From Trichoplax sp. H2 (taxonomy: Eukaryota): 64,000 bases of DNA. A program made the translations under genes and the position numbers. The DNA lies in contig NOWV01000113.1 in assembly GCA_003344405.1 (NCBI GenBank), forward strand, positions 124,001 to 188,000. The letters run 5' to 3'. Below, piece by piece: positions 6,732 to 49,969 of the stretch (position 1 is the stretch's first letter; each line of letters begins with the position of its first letter). The notes beneath the pieces are model-generated. The model made no database searches and was not told the origin of the DNA. It saw only the letters and a list, made by a program, of their open reading frames with translations.

Positions 6732-9003
6732 ATGCTACGAATTTGCAGCATGGTAGTAATCACTTCCAATTTTTTATACGTTGCAATATTTATTATTTTA
6801 GTCCTTTATCTTAACAGCATCATAGTCAATTACAATTATGGTTGGCCTACGTCGCCGCCTTTTAAGCGTCCTTACTTACGAGCCTTAAACCCAATCAAGA
6901 TCTTACAAATTAACAGAGAAATTCTTTACTACATCCTATCTTTTCGCCATATTAATTTATATTTTATGTGGAAAAAGTTATATAATACGGCCAAGCCACC
7001 ACATTTATATAAGGTTGGTAGGTTGCTATAGACATGATAGAAAAATTTAAAATGTGCAGGTCATCTTAATTAAGCAACATACGGTAGTGAGTGGCAATAT
7101 GATCGGCGCCACAAGTGATAAATAGAAGAGTTATACTGTATAGTGTAATAGCTTAGCATTACACTGCAATAACCAAAATAATGCTAGAAGTTACTATTAC
7201 TTCAAGGTAGACTTGTACCTAGGGTCAAATAGAAATTGTAATTATGACTAAAAAAGTGGAACTACCTATCCATCTATAGGATATACCATATTCACTTAAT
7301 GGATGCCGATTAGATATTCATCGTTCGGAAGAGAGTGTTCAAAATAACAGTACGTTACGCCCAATAGTCATCTATATATATGGTGGAGCATGGATGTTTG
7401 GCTCGAAGCAAATGTATTGTGTATTAGCTGCGAATTTAGCTAATTTAACAGGCTGCGTCGTTTGTTGTCCAAATTACCTACTGGTTAATAAGGTAAATTT
7501 GATGATCGATATGCAATAAAGCTACTGCTACTGTATACCCATGATGCGTTAGTAACCTTTTAATATTTCGGCCGATAACCTGATGTATAATTTATATAAT
7601 TGATGATGTATGTTCTTGTACTAGTATATTCCAACACAAACATAGTCTAATGTCTTTTTTATTATGCAAAATGTGCAATAGGGTAATGTAGTTCATATGC
7701 TACAAGATTTAAAGGATTGTACTCGATGGCTTATCGATCATGGGAAAGAATATGGAGGAGATCCTGTAATTAAATTAGAATTTATCGCAGTTGTCAATAC
7801 CTTAATACGTCTAAATTTTACAAATAATTCAGGATAATCATCCATTATTGTTCAATTTTTATTCCTAAATTTATCGTTAATCCTGCATTCAAAATTGATA
7901 TTTACAGACTTGCACGTACAGTTACGCGTATTACTGAACTGGTTATAATTTAATCGATAGGAAAACATATTATTCGTTGGACACTCTTCAGGAGCCCACT
8001 TATCCATTTTAAATTTGATAGAATTGATCAGCCAAAGTTATTGGAATACTGAAAGTAACAATATTGTACGCAAAATTAAAGGTATTACCTCAATCAATTC
8101 AAGTAGAGAGTTCATTCATTTTTAGTAAAATTGTTATTGAACTGCAATGTTTTTAGACGAGTAAGGCATATATTTTTTATACAGAAATAAAAATGTTTTA
8201 TTCCAAGATCCAAGTGACATGCTGTAGATTATGTACATCAAGTAAATTGTTAATGTGAAGGCGCATACGATATTGCTACTCTATATGTCAATGATTGTAG
8301 TGTCATACACTGCACTATAATGGTTAAGTTATTAATAATGTGTAATAGACAACTGATGATATCTAGAATCTACTGAAACTAAGAAAGTAATTCCAAAATC
8401 TTTTAGATATAACATCCTTTTTATTGTTAATTAGGCGTTATTGCACTAGCTGGCGTTTACGATATTCCACAACACTTATTATATGAGATAGGGAGAGGTG
8501 TCGAAGATGTATCCGGTATGTATAGAGCTATGCTCGGTGTTACCGGTTTAAAGCGCTATTCTCCCTACTATCTAGTTCAAGATATGCTATCAAGAAGTGA
8601 AAATACAAGCAGGTTTGATTTCACCTCGTGTGCTAGTTATTAAACGCAAATATCTCGTTAGCTGACTTTATAAGATTTCCGATATCTTAAAACTTTATAT
8701 TTATCTAGAATATGCAATATTTTTGGAATTTCTAATTTTAGTAGTCAAGAAAAAGACAGTAGTCTGTGGCCGCATATCATATTACTTCATGGAGAGAACG
8801 ATACTACTGTCCCAGTCCAGCAATCTGAAAAATTTTATCAAGTCGTTAAGGAATTAGATGTTACCATTGAATATTGCGAATTAAAGCACTTGGATCATAC
8901 AAACTACATTATTGATATGATGAATGCCAACTATCAAATTCACAAGATTATCTCTGAAATAATCACGCCCAATGTTCAGAAAATTATTCTTCGTGAACGC
9001 TAG
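6732..9003 (+). CDS. Alpha/beta hydrolase, isoprenylcysteine methylesterase (ICME)-like / HSL-type esterase
   Basis: Exons at about 6732-7013, 7280-7491, 7682-7765, 7961-8081, 8435-8612 and 8741-9003 give RLDIH..PIVIYIYGGAWMFGSK (oxyanion region), YGGDPENILFVGHSSGAHL (nucleophile), LAGVYDI, LLHGENDTTVP (acid) and LDHT (His). The 5' end is uncertain. Confidence 0.85.
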
Positions 9004-9272: not shown

Positions 9273-16320
<7,048 letters not shown>

Positions 16321-16639
16321 AATTTCAACACGACCGTAAGTCTAGTGTCCTAACTTCCGAGTATAATTAATCCAGGAGCTGCTCTTATTAATGATGCTGC
16401 GGTGCTTAATTAAGTAGCATTGGATGTTTAGTGCACTAATTCTTGAACGCCACAACAATATAACTAAGAATGAAAATGATTCTCGCTCGATTTCGCCATT
16501 TGCAGTAAAAAAATGTTCTAGAATTCACCATGTAAAGATAAGATAAATAGCGAAAGATGTGTGAATCTTTCAGTCAACACCCAAAAGTCTGAAACTAGTG
16601 TGCGTCACCCCCAAAATTATACCTTAATTGAATAATAAA

Positions 16640-16950
16640 TACTGTACACTGTATCATGTCTGTGCTGTTCTACAGTATACAAATGTGTACAGTACGCTCC
16701 TGCAGTACAGTACATTTTGCGGGTCTCTACAGTTGTACAGTACTGTACTACTGTACTGTACTGTACAGTGTACAGTACAGTATAGTACGGACAAATGCTG
16801 GACAGGGGTACCGTATTGTACTGTCTTAGAGGTCTGGTAGAGTGACACTCACTCGTTGACGTGTACAATAAATGACTCTACAATGTATAGTACAGTTCAG
16901 TACAGCATGTGGTTCAACCACTGACTCAATACAGTACTGTAGACTGTACC
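16640..16950. repeat. Low-complexity TACAG/CTGTA/GTAC-rich tract upstream of HERC4
   Basis: Dense imperfect iteration, e.g. tacagtactgtactactgtactgtactgtacagtgtacagtacagtatagtac. The overlapping ORFs here are artefacts of the repeat. Confidence 0.85.
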
Positions 16951-18350: not shown

Positions 18351-18936
18351 TACATACAATCACAGTATACCTGTAAGTACGCGCAACGTATAAACTGATG
18401 AAAATTGTTTTATTCAAGCATACTGATCAGGCTAGAGTTTTACAGTTACGTTTTGATTTAATTGAGTTCATTCGAAATTTTAATTGATTTCAAACGCTGG
18501 ATTATACATATGAACAGGAGCTACAACTTATCTTCCTCATGGATTACTGGAAGAAAATGTTTTCTTCTAGTAGTCCATGTCTTCCCCTACGAGGATCAAG
18601 TATAAGGTAACGATAATACGAGTAAGTATATGCTAATATCGAATCTACTGCATAAAGGTCCACAATAAGTAATATCGTTGTTACAAAGATAAAAAAACGA
18701 GAAATTTATTAATTGGTTACAATCTTGAAAGCGAATACATGTTTAATGGACAATCTCTATTTACGTCTAATTTAAGACTAAACTGTTTCATGAAGTAATC
18801 GAAAAATATATATTCACACTTGTGAAGTCGACATTCGAACAGACATGATCTGATAAATTTGCCCAGATCAGGACGGGTTGAGTATTCATAGGCCTAATCA
18901 TTCCCAGCTTAAAATGGCTTACAATCATAATGCTTT

Positions 18937-19474
18937 CTATTTTTTGCCTAATACCCACCAATGGCGTCGTCGAGAAAGTGGTCGATAATTTTTGTTTTCT
19001 CTAGATGAAGATGCTCCCCATAAAATCTGAAAATACGGATGAAATTGAAACCGGTAAAACATTGATATGCAGTATAAGATATACCTATTAATAACTGTAT
19101 GATCATACAATCGTTCAAAATTCTATATGTCGCTGGCTCACCTTATTGATGAATCTATGAATGCTCTGATCATGTGTAGCCTTCGGATTAGACTCATCAA
19201 CAACGATATAATCACGATCATTATTTATATCCTCCGAATCGATGGACGCTTTATGATTAATTCCGTCGTTGATTTGTTGATCTAATATATCTTCATCGCT
19301 ATCTTTACGTTGTGTTTCCGATTCGTTGTCGTCACCGGCTTCGTTTACTTCTAATGCTCTATCGGCGTCTTCGTCATTTTCGTGATCACGATAATTAGGG
19401 TAAACAGGATCGCTACAGGATAGCGCAATCAAAGCGATCACACTCAGGACAACAACTGCATTTATTGTAACCAT
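18937..19474 (-). CDS. Secreted prepropeptide (140 aa): signal peptide, acidic pro-region, basic C-terminus with amidation signal
   Basis: Exon 1 is 19474-19142 (MVTINAVVVLSVIALIALSCSDPVY...HRFINK, donor gtgagc). Exon 2 is 19026-18937 (acceptor tttcag; ILWGASSSRENKNYRPLSRRRHWWVLGKK*). The join is phase 0. Confidence 0.8.
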
Positions 19475-21369
19475 CTTATCCTTTAACAGGCAACAAGAAT
19501 CACTACATGATTATACAATATTTCATGCTATAGCTACATTTATAAATATCTAGTTTCTACTTATAGTAAATATTTATTTATATAAATGGTTAAACTAATA
19601 ATCGAAATCAAAAAGCTTCGTTTAATACGGAAGATTACCTCTTTCTTGCTTTAACTTTTATCGTTCGAAATCGTAGTAATACGTATATAGAATAGCGAAG
19701 CCGAGACTACAACCGGCATTTATATCTTTTTAGGCCATATTTCATGAATATTGCCTAATATGAACCTTTCCCTAAAATTTCTAAAGAAAATGGCTTACAA
19801 CGTGTTTGCCATTGTATTTAGTTTCGAAACCTCGTAAATTCTTCGAAAATAATCTATTCATGTAGAATTATGTATTTAAATAAGTAAACAAGTTCATATT
19901 TACCATTTAAATTATAGAAAATTAATGAGATATCATTAATTCTGGCTTCCGATTATTAATCTATCACCGAAAATGAACAACCACATTTTTCTATGTTATT
20001 TTATTCTGAAAAGTGGCGTCTATTATAATTATGAATAAATTAATAGCTGATCATTCACTGGACTAAGTACATTCGGTACTTTATTCTTTTGATGCATTCT
20101 ATAGAAGAAATTTAAGTTCACTATAAATGTAAACTTGACTTGGCGCCATTAATAGCGATACATAGAATGTAATTATACGTGTATGTAAACTAAAAGTGCT
20201 TTCGCTCGAAATGCATTTACAGTGTGTCATCTTAAAATTGCATGGTCTGTTTGCATGCCCTACTGCTGATTATGTAAATGTACAAATTTATCGCTGTTTA
20301 ATAATTATAGTGGCATGGAAATTGCTCTATGGCTCACTATCGATAATAATTTTGATAAATATATTCACTTGCTACTCGGACTATTGTGTTGATAAGAACG
20401 AAATGATGCATTAGCCTACAATATGCATGTCCCATGAATACTATGTTCTACATGCATATTTGACACTGATCAAAATATGAGATTAAAATCTCTTCCTTTT
20501 TAGAATACTATACGTACTATATAATTATCAAGAAATTATTGATGTCGACGGTTATACTGGTACAATACCTACACTATGCATCAAATATTAATGTTATCAT
20601 AAACTTTTCTTGATTTCAGGCACAAGAAGGAAATAAGCCTATTTGATAAGATTATTCTTTGTTCCTTCACTGAAATCATCTATACTTATCGACGGTTCCT
20701 ATTTTTACGTATAAATTAATGCCCAATAAATACTATCGTATAGTAATAAGGCGTTTGCATACTCCCCTGTGGTTATTAATACAATTAATAATAGCATCGA
20801 TGAATCTATCACGTAACAATAAATCTTTCGCTGGCCTAATTATAATTGCATTATAATTATCGTAGTTATAAAAACATAGAAAGGTTGCTTTCGAAATCGT
20901 GTCAGGCTTAACAGGTAGCTTCTTGCTAATTCATTTATTGTCCGACATAACATAAGTATAGCACGGTCACAATTGATTTAATATGAAGTTCTGATCACGC
21001 TAATCTTTACTCATTTCAGTAATTCGTATTTACTCATGAAATCGTATCTGTCGCAACCTGCAGCAGCATCAAACTACAATGCTTGTATCCTGAATACCTT
21101 ATCAAGCTGAATTTTTATAGGCCAATTTCTATAGCTGGAATATTATAAACCTGATACAGTAAGCAAGTTATTCCAATCTCATGTGCTATTGCTAAATAGC
21201 AGAATTATCGTAATTTATGTCCTCTATCCTTTCCGTATAGACAAAAGGCCTACTGTTGAGTATCGCATTGTAGTTATTGTCTTTCGTACTAAAAATAGTA
21301 AGAATAATATATAGAGCTTTCCCATTTGACTACATTCTTCTGAAAATCAAAATACTCACAGGTAGTTAA

Positions 21370-22333: not shown

Positions 22334-24012
22334 TTAATCAGTTTTGATTTTTTTACCAAACACAGCAGTACAGCAAGAAAATAGCAAGCTTTTAACTATT
22401 CTCCAAATCATGTACAAAATTCCCAAGACTATAATGTACATATCGTAGCTACCAGCAATGATCCAAAACATGTTAAATTCCTCAGGCTTCAAGTGTTTTG
22501 TGCCGTGATTGAGCACATAATCAACCCAGTACCCCACTTCTTCTACAGATGATAAGTTATTTGGTCGATGATGCAATATACTAGCAATCTGACGGCTGTT
22601 GTCGATGATATACTCATCTTCTATTACCTGCTGGATGGCATAATATAACCAAGTACCGTTAACAAATTGCATAGGTGTAAATTTGCCCTTGTTGACATGC
22701 TCCATTCGATGAGCTAAATAGAAATTTTCGTTAGTTATGGGTAAACCAATGATTGGCACACCATGATAAGAAGCCTGGTGCACATCTATGATCTTACAGT
22801 TGGTAATAAATGCCTTTATCTTTGAATGGGATACTAGATTCCATGGCAGCTGTGATGTAATATAGACATTAGTTGGAACCAGCGATAACGACGGACCATT
22901 GTAGTGCCATATAAATTTATACGGTAATTTAGAAAAGGTATTAATAATATCACGTAATGTATTTCGATCGATAATTTCCTGTAAGTAGCCATCAAAATCG
23001 AAGGAAACCAGGATGAATCCCAGATCGGTATCTTGAATGATTGGAGTTTCTTTCTCTTTTACAGTTCCTGCATTTAGAGATGTGACAAAGACTGGACCGA
23101 TTAATTTTACAAATGGTGTATATGGGCGAGCATAATCGATACTAAAATCAGTTGCTAATAGATAGAGGGACGCTTTCGGTGATAAATCAGGAAATCCATT
23201 CTGAAAATGTTTTCGCGTAATGCGATATGTGCGAGGGATAGTATCTATCATAAAGTACACCTTAGCTGCCCAATATACCCAGAAATTTTGCAGCCGCTGC
23301 AGGATGGTCATATTTGTTGTACCGATGTCAGCACCATGTTGCGGTACGTAGGCTATTGGATTTGGAACTTTGTAATATGCAGTCGGTCCGGGATCTAGAA
23401 AGCCAGCTAAATTGATATCGATTTGACGTGAGGCGTTGGATACTCGTGACAGTAAATTACAGCCAAAAAAGCTAAATTCACAAATTAGTAAGTCTGAAAA
23501 GGTTAAAGAAATGCAAGCATATATTATTATACTCGTCAGTTTATTTGGTATTACACTTCATATTTCTCAAGCAACAGTATTCATTTGATTTTTAACTAAC
23601 CTGACTCTTGTACTAGATGTCTTGCTTTTTCGTCGCTCAGTATGGCATCTGCTTCTTTGTAAGCTTCATCTAGGCAAGGAGCAACATAAGAATTACCTTT
23701 TACTGCCAATCGACACCGATTAAAGTCATCTTCGATCAGCTGAGACTTGAAGGAATGAAAGTGAAATTGAGTGGAATCCACAGTATTGAGTTCTCCATGT
23801 TGAAATTTGACAGCAGATGATATAACGAAAGTAACGTCGTGACCTTGCTTTAGTAGTTGATGAGTAATTTGAATGAAACTGAAGGTATGAGTATAATATG
23901 AAAAGGGTATAATGACAACTTTAGCAGAATTAGCAGGTTGGATTGATGAAAAAATGAGTGCAATAGCGAAGATATTGCACAGATGTATCAAAGGTTTACA
24001 TACAGAAGTCAT
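22334..24012 (-). CDS. UDP-glycosyltransferase (UGT1/2/3/8-like fold), 2 exons, about 523 aa, ER type I membrane protein
   Basis: Exons 24012-23601 and 23493-22334. Features include a signal peptide, AKVVIIP..TH...GHDVTF, PNPIAYVP, MTILQRLQN, DYARPYTP, YHGVPIIGLP, YWVDYVLNHGTKHLKP, a TM helix and a C-terminal KKIKTD dilysine signal. Confidence 0.92.
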
Positions 24013-24559
24013 TGCTATAAAATATCCTAATATTTATCCTATTTTTAGCTACACCATTGCTAAACGTTGTAGACGTTTAGCGATGGAGGACTACAGCAAT
24101 ACTGTACCTATTATGCATCTACAGTATAGCGGAGTCTGCGTAGTTTACAGTGAAGATTATAGTCGGTTTCGAAGAAACACTTTATGGTAATCGACTGTAA
24201 TTAATCAACAGACGCCCATATTAACTAAACAGTAAACACCACACCCATAACCTTTGACGAAAGTCGATGTCTAAAGTACATGTCGATGGAGGGAACTTGC
24301 CGAGAGAAAAGACTGTAAAGACATCAAATAACCAATCTGATAATATTATCTGGCTGAAACCGTTTCAGCCAAATATCATCGTGATAATACTCTACTTACT
24401 TGTACCTACTACTGTACTGTACTGTAGTAGTTCTTTGTCCCTTGATAAAGTTCTCAATGTTTATTTTTATAAAACCTTATAATCGTAAAATGATAAAATA
24501 AATTCATTCCTTAATTGCAAGGATATCGTGGCCCAACAAGTTATGAAAATGATATGAAT

Positions 24560-24842: not shown

Positions 24843-26780
24843 AGGCAATAGCTATAATCACAGTGGACATCATACCTAGGATAGTACACAGAAGGTATAC
24901 AGAAGAGTATCAGATGTCCCTTGATCGTACAGAACAGTATAACCCTTGACTAATGTATAATACAGTACACTATCATCTTGAACTCGTCAATGGACTGAAT
25001 TAGTTAGCAAGCGCAGTAGGGAAGCCTGACTAAAAATATCGCCAACTACTGGTGTTGTATTATAGAGGAGTAGACGATGCGTATTTGCCCCTTAGATCCA
25101 GTTTGGATAGAATTAATTTACTGCCGATGATGGTAGGGTAAAGTAAGGAAGGAAGTGATTGCCTACAGTAGTTGAAAGAAGATCATGGCGTAGAAACGTA
25201 TGAAATTATATTAATGTAAGTATGACTGTAAGATATAGAAGATATCAACCAGGGGCTAATGGGATACTCTGGTGATTCATCCATGGACAACCTGCATGCA
25301 AAGAGTAGAATACCAAGGACATTCAAAAACATCATTGGATGTAGTGATGGACTTTTGTTATTTTAATAGGCCACCATGGAGTAAAACCAAGATAAATCCA
25401 ATGATTAACAGTATGACCGAGAGTAGATGATGTCTTGGTATTTGGATATTCAAAGCAATAGATAATAGAACCGTCATGCTATGAAGATTGTTCGGATCAG
25501 TTGAACGCACATACCGTTAAATCTATTTTCCCTTAGACTAACTCCAATTATTATGAGTAATTATTTATTCATTTAATCTATCTTATTACATTACTGTAAC
25601 AAATGGCATGATCTGTTGTGAAATTAGTTTAGTGGGATAAGATAGACATAGAGTTAATCTATTAGACCAGCAACTCATGGAGATAATATCTGGAATGAGT
25701 ACATCCTTAAAACTGCAATCCCAATATCTCAACCCTCAACGGACTAAACTGGACGTGATACGGTGCTATTTGCATTTTCCAGTCAATACAGTACTGTGCT
25801 CTAGAAGATAAACGAATAGGCAAGGATAAAGTGTCGGTCTCTTCTTTAAATGCCCTATCCTGATCAAACATTTTATTTTCGGACATTGCATGCTTAAAAA
25901 GAATTTCTTACGTACCATTGTTATTCCTTTTCTACTTGCTTGGGATAACTCAATTCTAACTTGGGTACAGAAGTGAAAAAAAATGACCAGAGATCGAATG
26001 GACTGTTTAAAATGATTGGATAGACGTAATACGTACAATAAATATGTTCGCATAGAAGTAAATGTTCAGTACTGAGTGATTATAGATCAATACAATTAAT
26101 ATTTTCCCAGTTAAACTGTTAATTAACTATCTATTTACAGTCGTAGGAGTATATTGAATCGTCATGCCGTATTTCCGTGACCAATGTAGTAAATTAACAG
26201 CTACAGATACGCCTATAACATGTATATGAATACACTTCTAATTCGTTCATGTTTTGATCAGCGATAGACGATATCAAGATCGAAAAGTAAAACAAAAAAG
26301 TGCCTCCTATAGCCTCGTCCATGGTATCACTTTGAAAAATTATTGGGTACTGTGGTTACAAGACTTGAAATTGATCGCTTAAAGATTATAGTTTTATTTT
26401 GGCTTAGTAATAACGATAATTAAAATTTATCTATCAAACGAATTTCGAAAACACTCGAAAAAGTGGCTATATTTTTCATTTCTTTTTACGCTGTCAAAAG
26501 TAATCTATCATCAATAGGCTTTCTGTCTGAAAAATAATTTAAAAATTGCCGGATTTAACAAGTTTTCCATAAGCTAGGTACTATAAATCGAAATAGAATC
26601 ACTACAGATTCTTACTACCTTTCCGAATTGAACACTACTGATAATAATTAGTCAATTTTATTGATATCGACTGCGCACTGAGTTTTAGCAAGCAAAACGT
26701 CCCTTTTTATTCACGCTAGGATCTTGTCTAGATCTTATAACAGTGCCTAAGAGGTATCATTACTACGGCCATTATTAACG

Positions 26781-29700
26781 ATGGACCTAGTTAGGCAGTT
26801 ACTTTCTGCGACAGAACAAGGCAATATTTCCACTGTAACTTCTATGTTGGATTTATCAGACAATGTGGATATAACTGACGAAGAAGGCACAACTGCACTG
26901 CAGGTAGCTTGCGCTAACGGTCACGAAAATGTAGCTCGTTTATTAGTGGTACGAGGCGCTGACTTAAATCGCAGCAATTATTATGGTTGGACGGGGTTAA
27001 TGCAAGCAGCGTCCTATGGCCATGTTGGTATGGTTAACTTACTCTTACAAAATAAGATAGAAGTAAATGCGGTTAATGAATTTGGTACTTCAGCGCTAGT
27101 ATTGGCTTCTTATATTGGTTGTTTTGAAATTGTTAAATATTTAATTGATGCTGGTGCCGAGGTCGATGGTTGCAGTGATGATATGACACCTTTAATGGCG
27201 GCATCACAACATGGTCATGAGGAAATTGCTCGATTACTAATTGATAAAGGTGCCTCAGTTAACAAACGTATGCTACCGATCAATTGGAATGCTTTAATGT
27301 TCGCTACTTTAAACAGCCATATGAAAATTGTCGAGTTATTACTTGATCGCCGTACCGATGTAGCTGCTATTAATCAAGCCAGTGACACTATTATTGATGT
27401 TGCTGTATCAAGTAAAAATGAAGCTATTTTAGAATATTTATTACGAAGAACACATTTAAAACCTAGAATTCAAAGTAAGATTGTCATTCTTATATACGTA
27501 TATAAATTTATACAAGTCCCAAATAGTGATTTTATAGTACTAGACTGTAATGACCAGTACCGGGTAGACTCACTTTCTCCTAAATTTGTCTATCTGATCT
27601 TACTATATAACCATTAAGTAAACCTTTTACCTACTAATCTTCCTTTAAATTTACTGAATTTTTAGAAATTCAAATTTCCCAGTCAGATATCTTCGAAGCT
27701 GTAAAATATGGTTAGTTAAACAATATTCTTATATGATATTATTTTGCACCTTTATTTCTATTTGATTTTAGTCAATTTCTTAGCATTCCTAACAATGGAG
27801 AGTTAAAAAAAATTTTTTAAACTAAGATGGTATAAATAAGTAAAATTAGACTAAATGCAAAGTCAGTAGCAAATGGTGACTTTAGCTGTCAAACAGATAC
27901 CATCATTTCGATGAATCCGCTTCTTGAATGTATGTTCATATTATATTTAGGCAATTTGCGTAGAGTGAAAGAATTAATAGCGAGTAATATTAATGCCGCA
28001 AATAGTTCGGATAAAGATGGTGCTACCCCATTAATGTTCGCTGCTATGCGAGGTCACACCGACATAGTCGATTTTTTAATTGAAAAGCACGCAAATGTTA
28101 ATGCTCAAGATAAGATTAGTGGATGGACTTCTCTTATGCAAGCCACTTATTATGGGTATATTTACATTACTTAATGAGTAACCTGATATAGTTTAATTAA
28201 TTTGGCCATTTTAATAACGAACTTAGTCACTGTTGCTATTTTACTGTAAATTGTATTTTCTGATCGGTCAAAATTAGTTATATATGAGATTGTTTAATTC
28301 TTCAACAGGCACAGAGGTTGTGTTCGTCGGTTAATAGATGCTGGAGCAGATGTTACTTTAAAGGCTACAAATGATTACACCGCATTCGATATGGCCTCTA
28401 TAATAGGTACGATGTGACTGTCCTGCACAGCAAAATTTTATCGATGTAATTAGTGAGAAATATCAGTTAATGAAGGGAATTTTAATTCTATCTTGAAAGT
28501 TTCAAATGATGCGTTTCTTATTGTAGGAGATACCGAAATTGTTCGAATGCTAGCTGCGGTTAGTTTAAAGGTACAAACCGGCAGAGAAAAGGAAGGTATA
28601 TAAATATCGGTCCAATGCACTTAAGACTGCAGCATGTAAAATCAAATACTGAATGATAATAACAAAACCTTTTAAATGCCATACAATCAAGCGAAGGTAT
28701 CAATTTTTGTATTATTATCCTGATCCGTAACTAATTCATAGGTCACAACGTTAATGCTTGGTCGGGAAATAAACATGATCGAAGTCCAGGATCTCCGAAC
28801 GATAGCAATAATAGGTTAGTTTTGTATAACTGGAGCGGGCATAAAACCGTCACGAATGAATGTCTAGTGATATTAGATAAGGACTATTAGAAAAAATCAT
28901 CTTTTGTAGTAATCCTTGTACGTACATTACAGAATTCATTAATATTATCTTCCTTTTGATATAGGCAATTCGATGTTGAATCGAAGGGGGGTTTGAAAGT
29001 TAGTGTTACTGCGCAATAATTAGCTCTAAATCATTATTAGTAACTTTATTATTACAAAAATTCCGGTTGCAATTCTTTTTTCTACTGAGATTAAAAATCC
29101 TTTTTCTTGGAAATAATTCGTACACTTCTAGACTTGGTGGATGCGAATGTCTAATCGATTTCGAAATTTAAAAATTGGTCGAACATCTCGTGTTGAAAGT
29201 GCTAATAACTCTTTGGTAACCAACAGTGGGATTTTACATCCTAGCGTCAGGATCAATAATAATGAAAATCACAGCGCATCAGGTAAAGTTTACAAGCTAA
29301 ATCTTATATTACAATACAGTTAAGACAGTATAGTACATAGACTGCACAGTTCTTCCATCTGTGAGATAAAAGTGCGCAGTTACACCCACTCAAAGTATAA
29401 TATTGCATATTTAGATATTAGTGGAAGTGAAGTTAACAAAGAAGCGAAGCGTCCTCAAGTCTTGGTAAGGCTTACACCAGCGATAACCAAATTTCGATTT
29501 TCTGTGTTGGTATCGCAATCAATGCTTCTTTAAAGATGTAACTTCTATTATCCTTATATTTGTTGGCCTATACACATATAGGCTCTAGCATCAGTTCCTA
29601 AAAAAGGTCAGAAGCTACCTGCCAACGTATTAGCTCCAATTGTGCCACCGTTTTTACCGGCACCAACGTTCGACCTCATGAGTCGTAACGCCGACCGTGC

Positions 29701-41428: not shown

Positions 41429-44400
41429 ATGGAACGTAATGTCAAATATGTTTTTTTTTTGCGACATAATCAGTCAGCTTGGCTGTACGCATGAATACCT
41501 TGAACTGAGTACATTCTGTATTTTATTAACTAGAAATTCTATTATTTTATGATTAGCATTTTGCTCTACGTTATTGGAATTATTTGGTTGCTAGCATTGG
41601 CTCTTGATGACTTCAACGATAGATGTTACATATCGGAAAATGCTTTGATGCCAGCCATGACGCATACGCACTATACCAATGCCAGAGACGTAACAAGTAT
41701 GACTAGTGAATTAACAGAGATGTCGTCGAGGTAATCGTATACTAGTTTATTGCTAAAAATTATTTTATTGTACATAAAGTTTTAGCTGTGTCGACCGATT
41801 GACTTTGCTAGTCGTATTTATTGACTAACAACTCTATATATTTGAATATCATACGACAACATAGCCAAATTAATAACACGCATTAGTACTTTGATTTGTT
41901 GCATTTTTTATACTTTACCTAAAAATGAAGTATCCATTGCATTATAGTTGATTGATTATTATAATACATGAGAAGATATACAATGTTATATTTAATATAC
42001 CCAAGCTGATAGTATAGTGGACTCAGGAGTAATTTGAGTTCTTATTTTATAGGACCGTGCCTGCTAACTGGATACTTGAGCATTTTAAGAAATCAGGATT
42101 CGATACATTTACGCAAAATTTTACTTACCAGCGGCCATTTAATTATGTCAAAAACAAGGTTTAGGCCTACCTGCTATCCCCATATAACATTTTACTTGTG
42201 CTACTGTAAATTACAGTTTTAAGACATATATAGTTATTATACTAGTACAGTATCACTAAGTGCTATATGTTGCGTTTATCACAGACTATTACTGGTATGA
42301 ATGTATATGGAATACTCAGAGCACCCCGTAAAGCTGGAACAGAGGCAATTGTCTTAAATGTTCCTTATCGCCCTATACATCAAATCAAGCAAGAAGCAAC
42401 TCATGCTGGACTTGCATTGATGATATCATTAGCTTCTTACTTTCAAGGTACAATTTTACATATTTTGTGTCTCTGATGTATATCATGTATTGCTTATCAT
42501 TATCTAAGCCACTATGAATTTCATCGAAGTAATACATTCGAATTAATCTATCTTTATGGCTTAGAAAAAACGTACTGGTCCAAGGATATCATCTTTTTGG
42601 TAACAGAGAGGGAATATTATGGATTGCAGGCATGGCTGGACAGCTACTATGATACCCATATACCTGGTAGTTATGACATACGAGTATCTCTTTATGTAAT
42701 AAACATACAGTATGCGAATAATAGAAAAACTAATACCTGGATAGTTTATTTAAAATTTATAAGCAAACAATTGTTTTTAATAATAATAATATACGTAGTA
42801 TACGAGTTGTTATATTAAATCCAGCCTAATATATGTTGTTATGGCAGGTATTGAGAGGGAAGAACTAGGCGGCAGAGGTGGATCGATTCAGTCTGCTATT
42901 ACATTAGAAATACCATCTGAATATGTTGAAAGTCTCAACTTGAAACTTGGTTGGTAACTTTATAGTCAGAATTTTTTAAAATTGCGCTTTTTCTGTATTA
43001 TAGGATAAATTTCATGAAGAACATCATTTTTAACTTTGTAACAATGGTACATCACTTTATATCTTTGCTAATACTATATTTTGATGCAAATGTGTAAATA
43101 TGATAGAAGGGGTAAATGGTCAGCTACCCAATCTAGATGTATTCAACATGGCTGTGAGAATATGTGACAGAGAAGGAATCACTCCTACACTTCCAAGGCC
43201 TGTAAGCATAAGTACAGCATAGCTGCAAGCGATAATTTGTGACTCAATATAGCTCAGTAACTATTTATGGCTCATTTCAGAGTTACAAGAGTTCAACTTC
43301 TTACTTGAAATCCTTGATGACAATGCTAACCATGATGTCAAAGCATGCTCTAGGAATTCCCACTGGCAACCACGGACTATTCTTAAAGTACTAAATGCTT
43401 ATCAGACACATTAAATTGAATTTATAATAATCTAGAATAGGAGTAACGTAACTAGTTCTCACACCAGGAAGATTAAAGCATCAAAATTTATTGCTTACAT
43501 TTGAACCCTTTATTTGAATTCTATTATTTTAGATATCATATTGAAGCTATTACCCTGCAGGGTGTACTATCTGATCACTCCTATATTTCGAAAATGCCCA
43601 ACATTGGCAGGTAAATATCATTATTCATCTGTTAGGAGGAAAGAATGTTCTCATGCACATATGACTCACGAGAAAGTAACACATTATTTTATATTTTCGT
43701 ATTATTGATACAATATTTATGAACTAAATTTTTTTATTCAGAGCTGTAGAAGGAATTTTTAGAAGTCTGAATAATCTATTGGAAAGATTTCATGCTTCAT
43801 ACTTTTTCTACGTGTTGCCTTCTGAACATCGATATGTATCGATTGGCCTCTACATGCCGCCATTTTTTTGCTTGATCATACCTTTATTGATTAAAATATC
43901 CAAACCTTAGGAAATTATTCAGTTTCAAATATTGTATATTTATATTTATCAAAGTAGTATCGTTCTCATTGTAATTATTAGGACGCTCACTTGCAACACT
44001 AAGCTAAAAATCGTTTCCCTTAACGTTAAGTAAGCTATTTTTCTATGGAATGCAGCTGCAGATACTCAATTTTTGAAGAAAATTTGTGAAGATGCAATCA
44101 ATGATGATAAGAACGTAGATAATAATCAAGGATCCTCAAAAGTGAATATGGAGGTCTTAATTTAATCTAATTACGATAAAATTGTCCTGTAATACGGTAA
44201 ATTAATTATATCCGAAAAGTGATGCATGGTAATAACTCGTATAATTATCTATTACGTATAGGTCGCTTTTTATAGTCACCAGCACGATTTTAAGTATTTA
44301 CTGGCTTTGGTTACACTAGTTTACTTTTCTGGTATTATATTATACATTTTACCTAATACTGTCTGGGAACAATCAATACGTTATGATGTTAATCCAATGG

Positions 44401-45583: not shown

Positions 45584-48073
45584 CTATGCATCTTTTACAG
45601 CCATCTTATTGACAACGGCATCTACTAGGTCTGTTGTGTTCAGTTCGGCATCGGTAATACTATAAATCTAAATAAAATATGTAACGCTAAGAATTTGCGT
45701 TATTATACTCACAAAGTAGGCTTGAACTTGGATTATTTTGAAATACTGTATTATGCATAAAGGTTGCTGCTGAAAGGGATTTACCTTTTTAATATCTTCA
45801 TATTTTGAGAAATCATTTATCTTTTCTATTCCAATGCGTTCACCTTTAACAGCCTGAATTGCCATCTGAAACTTAAATAAATACAATCGTTTTTCAGTAT
45901 ACATATACCGTAGTGTAGTACTTCACGATACATATTAGCCACCCACGTATATAGTCAAAAACAAGAGTTTACTTGCATCATAAGACTATTTGCTTACTTT
46001 ACTACTATTTTCTTCGCTTTCAGTATCAATGACAGCAACAATGACTGCATTTGAATCATTAGATAGTCCAAATTTTTTGAATGAGCCAGCAATCTTACAA
46101 TAATAAAATAGTATGCATTACAACACTTCAATTCCATTATGGCTTAGTGTATAACGGTAAATAAGATCACAATAAACTGATTCTAAGCTGTACAATTTTA
46201 CATTTTTAGATGGTGATAGACTATAAAGTAGTTCACTGTGAACATTGCGTGTCTTCATTTTATTAATATCTTGCAAGTGTGCGGCTTTAAAGGCTGCAAC
46301 CGATAATTGAAAGATTCCAACAATCTAAATGGGTAAATAGATAAAATAACAGTAGGTCGACATTAGTGATAACATTGTGAACTTTCGTATTGAAGTCTAT
46401 GGTTAGCTACAAATACATATAAAGTTCCAACTGATGTTTACTCGTCTATACGTTTAGGCTGGTCATCCGTATACTACTATACGTATATTGATAAGGCTGC
46501 AAGAAATTTTTGACAATTATATTGTCCTAGTATGTATTGTAATGACATACACGTTCAGCTACCGTATATTGTAAAATGTGATTAAAACAAGTTAACCACG
46601 TACTCGAATGCATTTACAGTATTGAAAGCAACTATGGTAATAACAAACAGCTACAACGAGCTAGGCATCATGCTTGGTCACTATAACATTTAAGTTTACA
46701 GCAGAAGAATATTTCTATTGTTAAGCATAGAATGATCAAGTACTTTGATCAAGACTCTATTGTCATCAATGGTGGGCAATTTCAATTAGTATTTTTAGTC
46801 CAGCAGCTGCAATGCATAAGGCAACATACTTTATCATTTAACAATTGAGGTACAGCTGAAGGATACTTTTGTTAGTGAGGATAAAATGAGCAAGGAAGTA
46901 TTTCGATCAAGACCATATAGCAATTATTAGTACACTTTTCTGTTTAGCATTTTCGCGTATCAGCTACCATTGCAGTACTTCAGGAATCTTGCTTTGTCAT
47001 TTTAGCATTTAAGAGTGCAGCTGAGGCACACTATATTATTGGAGAGGATAAAGTGAGCAAGGAAATTGTTTCGATGAAGGCTACGCGTGCATAGCAAAAT
47101 TATTTGTGTGTCTATAGTATTATTATTATCAGCTAGCATTTTGGTGTGCTCGTATGACTAAAGGATAGTTTGATTGATGAAGATAAAAACAGCGAAACAA
47201 GCGTTGCAGGCCTATGGTACTACTAGTTATTGTAATTTGCGCATTGACGTCGATAAAATGTGTAAGACAGTACTGTTGCAGACCTAATTCATGCATTAAT
47301 TCATGTGTAACTATTATTATTTTAAGTCAACATGGAAAACAGAAAGAGGTCATTTACCATTTACTAGTAGTGTAGTGTCTACGGAGTGTAAGCAATCAAG
47401 GATTACCTTGTTGCAGACCTCATACATGCATTAATTCATGTGTGACTATTATTTTAAGTCAACATGGAAAACAGAAAGAGATCATTTACCATTTATTAGT
47501 AGTGTAGTGTCTACGGAGTGTAAGCAATCAAGGATTACCTTGTTGCAGACCTCATACATGCATTAATTCATGTATGACTATTATTTTAAGTCAACATGGA
47601 AAACAGAAAGAAGTCATTTACCATTTACTAGTAGTGTAGTGTCTACGGAGTGTCAGCAATCAAAGATTACCTTGTGGCAGACCTAATGCATGCATTAATT
47701 CATGTGTGACTATTATTTGAACTCAATATGGAAAACAGAACGAGGTCATTTACCATTTACTAGTAGTGCAGTAGCAGTGTAGTGTATGCTGAGTGTAAGC
47801 AATCAAGGATTATCTTGTTGCACTAGCAAAGTATCTGCAAATGATTCGTATATTGCACATACGCGTATTATTATTATTGTCATCGATGCTTATCAATTGA
47901 ATTTATTTATGCCAAGGTTGCGTGATCCATGCTCTACTACTCACCAAAGCAGGATTGATGAAAGCAGCTGATATTTTATTGTCGATAAGGCCTTGCTTTA
48001 ACTCTTCCAGGTTGGTAACTTGACAAAATAAGGCTATATGCAGCCAGTATTTGCCATTCAATTTTAGCGACAT
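45584..48073 (-). CDS. TPRKB: KEOPS/EKC complex subunit TPRKB (CGI-121), 5 exons
   Basis: MSLKLNGKYWLHIALFCQVTNLEELKQ...[56 protein letters not shown]...-IKK-IYSITDAE...LVDAVVNKMAVKDA*. Confidence 0.93.
47274..47822. repeat. Tandem repeat, about 132-143 bp x 4, in TPRKB intron 1
   Basis: Units begin tgt(t/g)gcagacct at 47274, 47409, 47541 and 47673. They share catgcattaattcatg, caacatggaaaacagaa and tgtaagcaatcaaggatta. Confidence 0.95.
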
Positions 48074-48588
48074 CCTTGGTGAATTTCCAATTGCAGACCA
48101 CTGCGGCAGAGGTGTCGTGCCGGTAGGTAAGTGTTCGCTACCCAACACGGGCTAATATGATACACAGCATTGAAAGCTTGACGACGTGTCATGTGAGAAG
48201 GGCGTAATGCTTATAGTAACACATAGCGACGGCAATATAGATTGAGTTGTTGAGTAGCAATAGAGACTTTATTTCTGCACCCGGCGATACGGGATAGTAT
48301 TCCAGGCTAGTCAGAACTGCAGTACTAGCCCAGGATTGTGCGCGTGCGGTACTAGACCGTCATTGTATCTGTTTCACTTTGCACTTTTGCACTTTACAGG
48401 TAGAATTTACTATAATTCATTCTAATTAAATCAATTCTAATCCATTATTGAAGAAGTTGATACACCATCTGAGTAAAGTTCTATTCTTATTTTACGGTAG
48501 CGATGATGAAAAAGATGCTTACTATCGGACTAGACTCACGTGCTGCGTAGAGGATGTAGTAATGTACAAAAAAGATGTCACCTGTCGG

Positions 48589-49969
48589 CTAGAGTGGTTG
48601 AGTACCTACTGTGGGAACACGATGAAGTCACGGTGGCATCGATTTTGCTAGTCAGTTTACACCATTAGTGCTAACTGCATCGAGTATCGAAAGTAATGTG
48701 TATAGCGCCATAAGAATCATTGATTTATCCGTATGTAGAGTACATACAGTACACTACAAGTTGCTAGCAAAAATAATGTCACTAATCGTGTATGAAGTAT
48801 ACTGTCCTATACAGTACTGATGCATCATTTCTATACGAGTACAGACTAGCACTGGTAGGATTCTGCTCGAAGCGTCCATAAAGTAAGACATTTCTTTTGC
48901 ACAGTCTTATCCCACTGTATCGGTATACTGCACTATCAAGAAGGCGCTTGGTCAAAGAGTAAACGTTGGACCTGGATCGCCTACTCAATCTAGAGTGGTT
49001 GAGTACCTACTGTGGGAAGACGATGAAGTCATGGTGACATCAATTTTGCTAGTCAGTTTACGCTATTAGTGCTAACCGCATCGAGTATCGAAACTACTGT
49101 ATAGTGCCATAAGAATCGCTGACTTCTCCATATGTACGTCCACTATAAATCGCTAGCAAAATAATGTCCCTAATCATGTGTCAGTTCATTAGACTCTTAA
49201 CAAGGGTCTCTATATTGCACTATCAAGGAGGCGCTTGGTCAAAGAGTAGCGTTCGACCTTGATCGCCTACTCATCTAGAATGGTTGAGTACCTACTGGGG
49301 GAAGACGATGAAGTCATGGTGACATCGATTTTGCTAGTCATTTTACGCCATTAGCACTAACCGCATCGAGTATCGAAACTACTGTATAGTGCCATAAGAA
49401 TTGCTGACTTATCCATATGTACAGTAGTACGTCCACTACAAATCGCTAGCAAAAATAATGTCACTAATCATGCGTCAGTTTAGAGACCCTTAATTAGACT
49501 CTTAACAAGGGTCTCTATACTGCACTATCAAGGAGGCGCTTGGTCAAAGAGTAGCGTTCGACCTTGATCGCCTACTCATCTAGAGCGGTTGAGTACCTAC
49601 TGGGGGAAGACGATGAAGTCATGGTGACATGGATTTTGCTAGTCATTTTACGCCATTAGTGCTAACCGTATCCGAGTATCGAAAGTACTGTATACTGTCA
49701 TAAGAATCGCTGACTTCTCCATATGTACGTCCACTACAAATCGCTAGCAAAAATAATGTCACTAATCATGTATCGAGTAAGTTGTCCTATACAGTGCTGA
49801 TACAACATTTCTATACGAGTACAGACTAGTACCAGTAGGATTCTACTTGAAGCGTCTATGAAGTAAGACATTAGTTTTGCACAATCTCATCCCTCTGTAT
49901 CGGTATACTGCACTATCAAGGAGGCGCTTGGTGAAAGCGTAAACGCTCGACCTTGATCGCCTACTCAAT
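48589..49969. repeat. Tandem array of four related units (about 401, 285, 305 and 390 bp)
   Basis: Units begin ctaga..ggttgagtacctactg at 48589, 48990, 49275 and 49580 and end gatcgcctactca. Units 1 and 4 share an internal block; units 2 and 3 carry a different, shorter one. Confidence 0.95.

What the first reader, a model, noticed from the sequence alone, without database searches (positions are those of the whole stretch)
18937..19474. Candidate novel amidated neuropeptide or antimicrobial peptide precursor (RRR-HWWVL-GKK*)
Seen: a hidden second exon (19026-18937) not shown in the ORF track completes a 140-aa protein. It has a hydrophobic signal peptide, a very acidic pro-region and the C-terminus ...YRPLSRRR-HWWVL-G-KK-stop. 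Established: a Gly followed by basic residues is the PAM amidation signal, and polybasic sites are convertase sites. Acidic pro-piece plus cationic amidated tail is also the architecture of arminin-type antimicrobial precursors. Inference: the product is either HWWVL-amide or a longer cationic Trp-rich amidated peptide (e.g. from FINKILWG onward). I do not recognise it among the placozoan peptides I know (SIFGamide, FFNPamide, WPPF, trichoplaxin), but I cannot search.
Basis: partly seen in the sequence, partly recalled or inferred. Interest (0 to 1): 0.78.

Follow-up and report, generated by a model that had tools for sequence, protein, structure and literature searches.

The report
Unstudied placozoan secreted amidated-peptide precursor gene
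This is a real, already annotated but never studied two-exon Trichoplax gene for a small secreted protein built like an antimicrobial-peptide precursor, and published cell atlases place it in an immune-flavoured epithelial cell type rather than in the neuron-like peptide-secreting cells.

Summary
On the minus strand, exon 1 (19474-19142), a 115-nt GT..AG intron and exon 2 (19026-18937) give a 140-aa protein: hydrophobic N-terminus, acidic middle (net -19), basic tail (net +8) ending RRR-HWWVL-G-KK-stop.

The exon is not hidden. T. adhaerens TRIADDRAFT_64229 ("expressed protein", 140 aa) uses the same junction and has an identical tail.

Tables of Najle et al. 2023 list one orthologue in each of four placozoan species. 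All four are strong members (0.91-0.98) of co-expression modules labelled "epithelia_unknown", not "peptidergic". That module group also holds the arminin-like AMP4, the secretory protein Ta 63786 and an amidating enzyme gene. The gene is not among the precursor genes listed in their mass-spectrometry peptide table.

Best reading: a single-copy, arminin-like (by architecture only) prepropeptide of a defence-type epithelial secretory cell, giving a C-terminally amidated basic peptide. Whether the RRR site is cut is open. A signalling role is a live rival.

No paper searched names the gene or the peptide. No homologue sequence could be retrieved, so tail conservation is untested. I rate it a new member of a known kind, of moderate interest.

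The parts
19538..19544 (-). TATA-like element (TATAAAT) 70 nt upstream of the ATG. A second one (TATATAA) starts at 19584. Putative core promoter.
   Evidence: Pattern scan. This is a consensus match only, with no transcript-start data.
19142..19474 (-). Exon 1: ATG to codon 111 (...FINK). There are in-frame stops upstream of the ATG.
   Evidence: 98% identical to residues 1-111 of TRIADDRAFT_64229.
19412..19474 (-). Signal peptide, residues 1 to about 19-21. The hydrophobic core is A6-L18. Small residues at -3/-1 allow cleavage after S19 or S21.
   Evidence: Mean hydropathy 2.5 over residues 1-20. AlphaFold2 helix 2-19, the only block with pLDDT above 70. The cleavage site is my heuristic reading; no SignalP was available.
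19175..19411 (-). Acidic pro-region, residues 22-100. Net charge about -19. It has three D-E pairs, one N-X-S sequon (N50), one RK dibasic site (56-57), and both substitutions relative to T. adhaerens H1 (positions 74 and 92).
   Evidence: Predicted disordered, pLDDT about 50-58.
19142..19174 (-). First part of the basic tail, residues 101-111. It contains the D102-Q103 pair, a possible acidic-residue cleavage and pyroglutamate start, and begins the amphipathic helix 102-114.
   Evidence: Hydrophobic moment 0.84 for residues 103-113. AlphaFold2 helix 102-114 at low confidence. The D-Q processing rule for placozoan precursors is described in PMC9545775 and visible in S8 Text.
19027..19141 (-). 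Intron, 115 nt, GTGAGC...TTTTCAG, phase 0.
   Evidence: GC 0.322. The same junction is in the public T. adhaerens protein.
18937..19026 (-). Exon 2: residues 112-140 plus the TAG stop.
   Evidence: Identical to the tail of TRIADDRAFT_64229.
18964..18972 (-). RRR130-132, a candidate prohormone-convertase site.
   Evidence: RRR separates peptide copies in the published ELPE prepropeptide. Cleavage here is inferred.
18949..18963 (-). HWWVL (residues 133-137): the C-terminal end of the mature product. It is either a pentapeptide amide or the end of a longer peptide.
   Evidence: Processing is inferred.
18940..18948 (-). G138-K139-K140, an amidation signal. Carboxypeptidase would remove KK, and PAM would convert Gly to an amide on Leu137.
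   Evidence: This rests on the established PAM/carboxypeptidase pathway, so it is inference. A PAM gene (TriadG63754) is a member of Tadh.darkorange, a module of the same 'epithelia_unknown' group.
18705..18710 (-). AATAAA 226 nt after the stop. An ATTAAA lies at 18742-18747, 189 nt after the stop. Candidate polyadenylation signals.
   Evidence: Pattern scan; no 3'-end data.

Best explanation
The locus is the Trichoplax gene known as TRIADDRAFT_64229 in T. adhaerens H1 and, by the published orthology table, TrispH2_007607 in Trichoplax sp. H2. It is a real, expressed, two-exon gene.

It encodes a 140-aa prepropeptide in three parts: a signal peptide of about 20 residues, a disordered and strongly acidic pro-piece of about 80 residues, and a basic tail of about 35-40 residues.

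Proposed mechanism (inferred):
1. The protein enters the secretory pathway.
2. The acidic pro-piece neutralises the basic tail until it is cut off. Candidate cuts are after D102, which would leave Q103 free to cyclise to pyroglutamate, and/or at RRR130-132.
3. Carboxypeptidase removes K139-K140.
4. Peptidylglycine alpha-amidating monooxygenase converts G138 into an amide on Leu137.

The product is then one of two things. It may be a 35-residue peptide (Q103-L137, net +7, with an amphipathic helix at its start and an Arg/Trp cluster at its end). Or it may be that peptide split at RRR into an upstream fragment plus HWWVL-amide.

The cells that make it are not the 'peptidergic' cell types. They are the conserved 'epithelia_unknown' group: small ciliated secretory epithelial cells marked by Ta 63786. 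The ventral rim subset of these cells also expresses the arminin-like AMP4 and an intelectin.

I therefore read the gene as a further arminin-like (by architecture, not by homology) epithelial defence or secretory effector peptide precursor, rather than a classical regulatory neuropeptide.

Shown here: gene structure, sequence features, public annotation, orthogroup and module membership. Inferred: secretion, every processing step, amidation and the defence function.
For: Gene and splice:
- Searches give the structure and composition.
- The public 140-aa T. adhaerens protein has the same junction and an identical tail.

Expression and conservation:
- Table S4 of Najle et al. 2023 (mmc4) lists orthogroup OG_2434 with one gene in each of four placozoans: Tadh_TriadT64229, TrH2_TrispH2_007607, Hhon_g09095 and HoiH23_PlH23_005492.
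- Table S3 (mmc3) gives module memberships of 0.915 (Tadh.skyblue3), 0.967 (TrH2.orangered4), 0.909 (Hhon.yellowgreen) and 0.984 (HoiH23.saddlebrown). All four modules are assigned to multi-species module gc005 'epithelia_unknown'.

Company in gc005:
- Ta 63786 and a PAM gene (TriadG63754, 0.756) are in Tadh.darkorange, together with JAK2, STATs, NACHT/NB-ARC and PARP genes, nucleobindins and a synaptobrevin.
- In H2, the orthologues of AMP4 and Ta 63786 are in TrH2.maroon, also gc005.
- TrH2.orangered4 also holds cathepsin D/E and the genomic neighbours (002206, 002208) of the 63786 orthologue.
- Mayorova et al. 2025 localise Ta 63786+ cells and their AMP4/intelectin co-expression. They define 'arminin-like' by signal peptide, acidic N-region, basic C-region with aliphatic residues, DE motifs and a C-terminal Gly for amidation.

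This protein shows those features: net charges -19 and +8, three DE pairs and G-KK-stop. Hydra arminin 1a-C, as synthesised, also ends ...VGKK (Table 1 of PMC6217004).

Structure: no Pfam domain. Predicted disordered except for the signal helix and helix 102-114, as expected for a propeptide.

Synteny: a Gaa1/GPAA1 exon lies 23 kb away in the window. GPAA1 is TrispH2_007612, five gene numbers from 007607.
Against: - No homology to arminins or to anything else. An exhaustive HMMER search of 1.84 billion representatives and two word-based searches of 5.8 billion clusters returned only the T. adhaerens protein itself. The arminin comparison is therefore architectural only.
- At 140 aa the protein is just below the ~150-250 aa that Mayorova et al. 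give for their arminin-like genes.
- The tail is much less cationic than arminin 1a-C: about +7 over 35 residues against +13 over 31.
- Its best helical hydrophobic moment is not beyond shuffled controls; 603 of 2000 shuffles reach it.
- The gene is in a different sub-module from AMP4 and Ta 63786 in both H1 and H2, so co-expression in the same cells is not shown.
- Neither TrispH2_007607 nor Hhon_g09095 appears in the peptide table of Najle et al. (mmc5). That table lists peptides from only 53 (H2) and 52 (H13) precursor genes, and I do not know whether a gene outside the peptidergic cell types could have been listed in it. The absence is therefore weak evidence.
- Epithelial expression does not exclude signalling. 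ELPE and RWamide precursors are also made by epithelial cells and mucocytes.
- With only two substitutions between the window and H1, both in the pro-region, there is no power to show constraint on the tail.
Confidence: 0.45

Rival explanations
1. It is the precursor of a paracrine regulatory peptide. Convertase cuts after RRR132. KK is trimmed and Gly138 is converted to an amide, releasing HWWVL-amide (or the longer pyroGlu/amide peptide). This acts on a GPCR or a peptide-gated channel of neighbouring cells. On this reading it is a neuropeptide-like signal from a non-'peptidergic' epithelial cell.
For: - The RRR ... G-KK-stop motif matches processing sites in accepted placozoan prepropeptides: RRR spacers in ELPE, and KK and GKK/GKR sites in the LF, FFNPamide and endomorphin-like precursors.
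- A PAM gene is in a module of the same cell-type group.
- Other placozoan prepropeptides are also expressed outside the peptidergic types: ELPE in dorsal epithelial cells and RWamide in mucocytes.
- Language-model look-alikes include several peptide-hormone precursor families (DH2-like, UTS2B, osteocrin, 26RFa, NPFF). Their scores are only 0.80-0.85, a level the tool says shuffled proteins reach a third of the time.
Against: - All four orthologues are in 'epithelia_unknown' modules, none in a peptidergic or pan-peptidergic module.
- The precursor has a single copy of the candidate peptide, whereas every precursor in S8 Text is multi-copy.
- The gene is not among the precursor genes listed in the H2 and H13 peptide table.
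- No receptor or behavioural data exist.
- An 80-residue acidic pro-piece balanced against a basic tail is more typical of host-defence precursors.
Confidence: 0.25
2. It is a secreted, intrinsically disordered acidic protein that works as a whole, for example as a granule-packing, mucus or matrix, or ion-binding component of this secretory cell. The basic C-terminus and the G-KK ending would then have no processing role.
For: - The whole mature protein is acidic, with pI 4.76, and predicted disordered.
- G-[KR]1-3-stop endings arise by chance at 0.67% of six-frame stops.
- No processed peptide from this gene is listed in the published table.
- The modules are rich in other unannotated small genes.
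Against: The sharp charge partition (-19 then +8), the polybasic site placed five residues before a Gly-Lys-Lys-stop, and a PAM gene in the same module group are more than such a protein needs. The same layout has been read as a processed precursor in Trichoplax before.
Confidence: 0.2
3. The gene model is wrong. Either the transcript ends in the retained intron (a 119-aa product ending ...VSQRHIEF), or it uses another last exon, so the RRR-HWWVL-GKK tail is never made.
For: No RNA-seq reads or ESTs could be inspected here. The read-through ORF exists.
Against: - Near-consensus donor and acceptor with a pyrimidine tract.
- Exon-like GC in exon 2 against the intron.
- The public T. adhaerens model, named 'Expressed protein', uses the same junction.
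- Gene models exist for the orthogroup in four species.
Confidence: 0.05

Closest known systems
Arminin-like putative antimicrobial peptide precursors of Trichoplax: AMP1 Ta 55945, AMP2 Ta 56030, AMP3 Ta 60631, AMP4 Ta 64402 (Mayorova et al., PLoS One 2025, PMC12013895)
   Same: Signal peptide, highly acidic N-terminal region, basic C-terminal region with aliphatic residues, DE motifs and a Gly positioned for C-terminal amidation. AMP4 and this gene both fall in modules of the gc005 'epithelia_unknown' group in H2.
   Different: - No sequence similarity could be tested, because the AMP1-4 sequences were not retrievable.
- The gene is in a separate orthogroup (OG_2434, against OG_7677, OG_8170, OG_8172 and OG_8173).
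- It is in a separate co-expression module from all four.
- It is 140 aa against ~150-250 aa.
- It is single-copy in all four species, whereas AMP families are patchy or expanded.
- It is not mentioned in that paper's main text or in the three supplements held.
Hydra arminin 1a
   Same: An acidic pro-piece, a cationic C-terminal peptide that is amidated, and a precursor ending in ...G-K-K (pro-piece description).
   Different: No detectable homology. Arminin 1a-C carries +13 over 31 residues, against about +7 over 35 here. Different phylum. Antimicrobial activity is shown for arminin and untested here. The original arminin paper (PMC2786370) was not held.
Trichoplaxin-2 precursor (T. adhaerens EST GR418172.1; Molecules 2020, PMC7436000)
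   Same: A Trichoplax precursor with the tripartite layout of signal peptide, acidic propeptide and C-terminal basic peptide. A run of Arg residues is followed directly by a His/Trp start, and the peptide was synthesised as an amide.
   Different: A different gene and peptide. It has 13 consecutive Arg and a 20-residue strongly amphipathic helix with measured micromolar activity. Here there are 3 Arg and only 5 residues after them.
Placozoan regulatory prepropeptides (SIFGamide, FFNPamide, RWamide, WPPF, LF, ELPE, endomorphin-like)
   Same: Signal peptide, di- or tribasic cleavage sites, Gly-basic amidation signals, and acidic residues or D-Q before peptide starts.
   Different: Those are multi-copy repeat precursors. 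Those present in the part of the peptide table I read (PWN, SIFGamide, RWamide) have a peptidergic cell type as their highest-expressing type. This gene has one candidate peptide and sits in epithelial modules.

Membership tests
Arminin-like putative AMP precursor, as defined by Mayorova et al. 2025 (architecture class, not a homology family) | N-terminal signal peptide | tested here: met
   Hydrophobic core A6-L18, mean hydropathy 2.5 over residues 1-20. AlphaFold2 helix 2-19. This is heuristic only: there was no SignalP, and the n-region has no basic residue.
Arminin-like putative AMP precursor, as defined by Mayorova et al. 2025 (architecture class, not a homology family) | Highly acidic N-terminal region with DE motifs | tested here: met
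   Residues 21-100 have net charge -19 and pI 4.05. Three D-E pairs are visible in the translation.
Arminin-like putative AMP precursor, as defined by Mayorova et al. 2025 (architecture class, not a homology family) | Basic C-terminal region containing aliphatic residues | tested here: met
   Residues 101-140 have net charge +8 and pI 11.7, and contain I, L and V residues. Charge density is lower than in arminin 1a-C.
Arminin-like putative AMP precursor, as defined by Mayorova et al. 2025 (architecture class, not a homology family) | C-terminal Gly placed for amidation | tested here: met
   G138-K139-K140-stop. The motif is present, but amidation itself was not tested.
Arminin-like putative AMP precursor, as defined by Mayorova et al. 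2025 (architecture class, not a homology family) | Length about 150-250 aa | tested here: not met
   140 aa, just under the stated range. This is a loose descriptor, not a hard criterion.
Arminin-like putative AMP precursor, as defined by Mayorova et al. 2025 (architecture class, not a homology family) | High expression in lower-epithelial cells (AMP1-3) or Ta 63786+ rim cells (AMP4) | tested here: inconclusive
   The gene is in the same multi-species module group (gc005) as Ta 63786 (H1 and H2) and, in H2, the AMP4 orthologue. It is in different sub-modules from them. It is not in the AMP1-3 module Tadh.bisque4. Expression level and location were not seen.
Arminin-like putative AMP precursor, as defined by Mayorova et al. 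2025 (architecture class, not a homology family) | Antimicrobial or membrane activity of the released peptide | not testable with these tools
   Only a short amphipathic segment (residues 102-114) is predicted. Its hydrophobic moment is not beyond shuffles, 603 of 2000.
Hydra arminin gene family (homology) | Detectable sequence similarity to arminins | tested here: not met
   phmmer against 1.84 billion representatives returned 1 hit at E<=0.001, the query itself. Pfam gave 0 families.
Placozoan regulatory (neuro)peptide precursor | Signal peptide plus basic cleavage sites flanking a peptide with a Gly amidation signal | tested here: met
   RRR130-132, HWWVL, G138, KK139-140. Comparable sites occur in accepted precursors.
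Placozoan regulatory (neuro)peptide precursor | Repeated copies of the peptide in the precursor | tested here: not met
   There is one candidate peptide only. All precursors in S8 Text are multi-copy. This feature is typical rather than obligatory.
Placozoan regulatory (neuro)peptide precursor | Expression in peptidergic cell types or the pan-peptidergic module | tested here: not met
   All 4 of 4 orthologues are in gc005 'epithelia_unknown' modules.
Placozoan regulatory (neuro)peptide precursor | Mature peptide detected by mass spectrometry | tested here: not met
   There are 0 occurrences of TrispH2_007607, Hhon_g09095 or the HWWVL motif in mmc5, the peptide list for H2 and H13. I do not know whether that table was restricted to certain precursor genes, and a very short or very basic peptide can be missed.
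Placozoan regulatory (neuro)peptide precursor | Receptor activation or behavioural effect | not testable with these tools
   No data.

The most novel reading that the evidence does not exclude
The conserved 'epithelia_unknown' cells of placozoans are small ciliated cells. Their modules combine JAK/STAT, NACHT/NB-ARC, PARP, TRP-channel and opsin genes with an amidating enzyme. These cells may release a doubly protected peptide (pyroGlu at Q103, amide at L137), or its fragment HWWVL-amide. Such a peptide could act both as a microbe-directed effector and as an alarm signal to neighbouring cells. That would be a peptide channel linking sensing, immunity and behaviour outside the fourteen 'peptidergic' cell types, present in all four sampled placozoan lineages.
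Probability: 0.12. Interest if true: 0.65.

Novelty: new member of a known kind. Interest (0 to 1): 0.35.

Why it matters
Placozoans have no neurons. Their behaviour and their defence both depend on secreted peptides. The published catalogues cover multi-copy regulatory peptides and a few arminin-like genes. This gene has been in the databases as an unnamed 'expressed protein', and it appears in a cell atlas as a strong member of a poorly understood epithelial module that is conserved in four species. Recognising it as a single-copy, probably amidated peptide precursor gives that cell type a candidate secreted effector. It also gives two concrete peptides to synthesise and test. It would add to, rather than overturn, the picture that tripartite acidic/basic amidated precursors are a common defence device in early-branching animals.

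Tried and rejected
**Searches for relatives**
- Word-based search with exon 1: 1 hit among 6 candidates.
- Word-based search with the full-length H1 protein at E<=10: 1 hit among 18 candidates.
- Word-based search with the tail only, residues 101-140: 1 hit from 1 candidate.
- Exhaustive phmmer over 1.84 billion representatives: 1 hit.
- Every hit was the T. adhaerens protein itself. No paralogue, and no Hoilungia or Cladtertia sequence, was obtained. I cannot tell whether those proteomes are in the databases.
- tblastn of the spliced protein against the window found no paralogue. The best other match had E=0.025, in an ORF at 54942-55898, which has no Pfam family.

**Family and structure searches**
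- Pfam: 0 families.
- ESM Atlas: feature hits of at most 0.85 and structural TM of at most 0.42, leads at best.
- AlphaFold2 with a single sequence: mean pLDDT 56.6 and no fold. No fold search was made because the model is too poor.

**Literature**
- No paper text holds TRIADDRAFT_64229 or HWWVL/WWVLG. The WWVL and VLamide hits were all unrelated by title.
- '64229' together with 'Trichoplax' found one unrelated paper.
- The original arminin paper, PMC2786370, is not held.

**Rejected idea**
- I considered that the gene marks the 'unknown' secretory cell type that Najle et al. imaged with beta-secretase 2. That marker (TrispH2_001704) is in TrH2.pink, not in gc005.
- 'OG_2434' in mmc1 has up to 77 species per row and must be a different numbering, so I ignored it.

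**Not used or not available**
- Genome contigs holds only bacteria and archaea.
- bioRxiv supplements are closed.
- The figures of both atlas papers (expression maps) are not held.
- mmc1 and mmc4 of Najle et al. were cut when stored.
- Nikitin 2015 and Varoqueaux 2018 were not read. They are known to me only through the review and a search listing.
Full report
**What is there**

On the minus strand an ATG at 19474 opens a 333-nt exon that ends ...FINK at 19142. It is followed by GTGAGC, a 115-nt AT-rich intron and a TATTTTCAG acceptor. The 90-nt second exon (19026-18937) continues in phase 0 and ends ...RRRHWWVLGKK-TAG. GC content is 0.39 in both exons, 0.32 in the intron and 0.29-0.32 in the flanks.

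Stops lie in frame upstream of the ATG. TATA-like elements sit 70 and 110 nt upstream, and AATAAA/ATTAAA signals 189-226 nt downstream of the stop. Unspliced, the ORF would end after 8 more codons, giving 119 aa. The window is about 33% GC throughout.

**The protein**

It has 140 residues in three parts:
- Residues 1-20 are hydrophobic (mean hydropathy 2.5), with small residues placed for cleavage after S19 or S21.
- Residues 21-100 carry net charge -19.
- Residues 101-140 carry net charge +8, with pI 11.7.

The only polybasic sites are RK56-57, RRR130-132 and KK139-140. The only Gly followed by basic residues is G138.

Pfam finds nothing. The ESM Atlas model (pLDDT 0.49) and a single-sequence AlphaFold2 model (pLDDT 56.6) are disordered. 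The exceptions are the signal helix and a low-confidence helix at 102-114. That helix coincides with the one strongly amphipathic stretch (moment 0.84), but this value is not unusual against shuffles: 603 of 2000 reach it.

A G-[KR]1-3-stop ending occurs at 61 of 9152 six-frame stops in the window. The motif alone is therefore a roughly 1-in-150 event, not proof of anything.

**It is an annotated gene**

The only relative in 5.8 billion clusters is T. adhaerens TRIADDRAFT_64229, 140 aa, called 'Expressed protein' by UniRef. It has the same exon join and an identical last 48 residues, and differs from the window protein at residues 74 and 92. From recall, not from a call, that name was given to models with EST support.

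The window comes from a Trichoplax lineage very close to, but not identical with, the H1 reference. Trichoplax sp. H2 is the obvious candidate, which is my inference. A Gaa1/GPAA1 exon at 42477-42818 fits the H2 gene numbering, in which GPAA1 is TrispH2_007612 and this gene's orthologue is TrispH2_007607.

**Relatives**

An exhaustive phmmer search of 1.84 billion representatives, a full-length word search at E<=10 and a tail-only search each returned only that protein. tblastn found no paralogue in the window.

Table S4 of Najle et al. 2023 (Cell, PMC10580291; supplements searched by term, mmc4 cut when stored) lists orthogroup OG_2434 with exactly one gene each from T. adhaerens H1, Trichoplax sp. 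[quoted passage not shown] I could not obtain those sequences.

**Where it is expressed**

Table S3 of the same paper (mmc3; parts 27 and 28 read, the rest by term search) gives WGCNA module memberships:
- 0.915 in Tadh.skyblue3
- 0.967 in TrH2.orangered4
- 0.909 in Hhon.yellowgreen
- 0.984 in HoiH23.saddlebrown

All four modules are assigned to the multi-species module gc005, curated as 'epithelia_unknown' with broad type 'epithelia'. None is a peptidergic or pan-peptidergic module.

Other members of gc005 modules:
- Tadh.darkorange holds the secretory protein Ta 63786 and a peptidylglycine alpha-amidating monooxygenase gene (TriadG63754, 0.756). It also holds two nucleobindins, a synaptobrevin, JAK2, several STATs, NACHT/NB-ARC and PARP genes, TRP channels and an opsin.
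- TrH2.maroon holds the H2 orthologues of Ta 63786 and of the arminin-like AMP4.
- TrH2.orangered4, this gene's own H2 module, also holds cathepsin D/E and the genomic neighbours of the 63786 orthologue.
- Tadh.skyblue3 is mostly unannotated genes, plus LITAF, a sulfotransferase and LGR-type receptors.

Mayorova et al. 2025 (PLoS One, PMC12013895; outline, section 12, passages and S8 Text read) describe Ta 63786+ cells. They are small ciliated cells scattered in the dorsal epithelium and 10-40 um from the rim ventrally. The ventral ones co-express AMP4 and an intelectin, and earlier atlases called their metacells 'peptidergic' or 'epithelial unknown'.

I checked and rejected one tempting link. 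The 'unknown' secretory cell type that Najle et al. imaged with beta-secretase 2 belongs to another module, TrH2.pink.

**What kind of precursor**

[quoted passage not shown] This protein meets all of these except the loose length range.

It is not named in their main text or in the three supplements held. It also lies outside the orthogroups and modules of AMP1-4.

Two comparisons:
- Hydra arminin 1a-C, as synthesised, ends ...VGKK and carries +13 over 31 residues. The tail here is weaker, at about +7 over 35.
- Another Trichoplax tripartite precursor, trichoplaxin-2, has an Arg run followed by a His/Trp start and an amidated, experimentally active peptide. It is a different gene.

The accepted placozoan regulatory prepropeptides are ELPE, LF, SIFGamide, FFNPamide, RWamide, WPPF and endomorphin-like. 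All are multi-copy. They use RRR, KK, GKR/GKK and D-Q boundaries, so the processing signals here are plausible in this phylum.

Cleavage after D102 would expose Q103 for pyroglutamate formation. That gives a 35-residue peptide blocked at both ends (Q103-L137 amide, net +7). This is inference. D-Q also occurs at 65-66, and such pairs are expected by chance in so acidic a protein.

**Peptidomics**

Table S5 (mmc5, not cut; part 1 read) lists peptides identified in H2 and H13 by gene identifier. The paper counts 400 peptides from 53 genes in H2 and 333 from 52 genes in H13. Term searches over all five supplements found TrispH2_007607 and Hhon_g09095 only in mmc3 and mmc4, and found HWWVL nowhere.

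So no peptide from this precursor is listed. This counts against an abundant processed peptide, but only weakly. I do not know how the listed genes were selected, and very short or very basic peptides are easily missed.

**Verdict**

| Claim | Probability |
|---|---|
| The gene and its product are real | about 0.9 |
| It is a processed, amidated peptide precursor | about 0.6 |
| Its role is epithelial defence or secretion rather than regulatory signalling (preferred reading) | about 0.45 |
| Rival: signalling peptide | 0.25 |
| Rival: unprocessed acidic secreted protein | 0.2 |
| Rival: wrong gene model | 0.05 |

The category is already known: tripartite, amidated, arminin-like precursors in Trichoplax. 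The particular gene has not been described in any text I could search. It is a new member of a known kind and of moderate interest.

**What stayed unchecked**
- Orthologue sequences.
- RNA-seq junction reads.
- SignalP.
- Expression level and location. The figures are not held.
- bioRxiv supplements, and the closed metagenome and viral collections.

Noticed in passing
window 22334-24033 (-): UDP-glucuronosyl/glucosyltransferase gene. The 407-aa ORF at 22334-23557 matches PF00201 (E=1.5e-32). The adjacent 145-aa ORF at 23596-24033 looks like its N-terminal exon, with a hydrophobic start, but has no Pfam hit.
   Followed up: partly
window ~13000-16350 (-): Several ORFs with RCC1-repeat sequence (for example 16090-16341; PF00415 E=3.7e-13, RCC1-like domain). 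This is a multi-exon RCC1/HERC-type gene directly downstream of the peptide gene.
   Followed up: partly
window 26751-28174 (+): Ankyrin-repeat gene with at least two exons (PF12796 E=8e-44 and 8e-15).
   Followed up: partly
window 42477-42818 (+): Exon matching Gaa1/GPAA1, a GPI transamidase component (PF04114, E=1.1e-11). In the published orthology table, GPAA1 (TrispH2_007612 / TriadG59923) is five gene numbers from this gene's H2 orthologue, which fits conserved synteny.
   Followed up: partly
window 54942-55898 (+): The second-longest open frame in the window (318 aa), with no Pfam family. Weak tblastn matches to the acidic pro-region start at 55386 and run to 55820 (E=0.025 without composition correction). 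These are probably compositional.
   Followed up: no
window 16617-16877 (both strands): Open frames on both strands with a repetitive Tyr/Thr/Val/Gln-rich translation (…YTVQYSTV…). This suggests a short tandem or low-complexity DNA repeat in the 16-18 kb block, where GC rises to 0.38.
   Followed up: no
window 48001-50000: The highest GC in the window, 0.42 against about 0.33 elsewhere. The cause was not examined.
   Followed up: no
window 8431-9003 (+): ORFs with weak alpha/beta-hydrolase or prolyl-oligopeptidase-type matches (PF00326, E=3.3e-5). Probably exons of a serine hydrolase gene.
   Followed up: no
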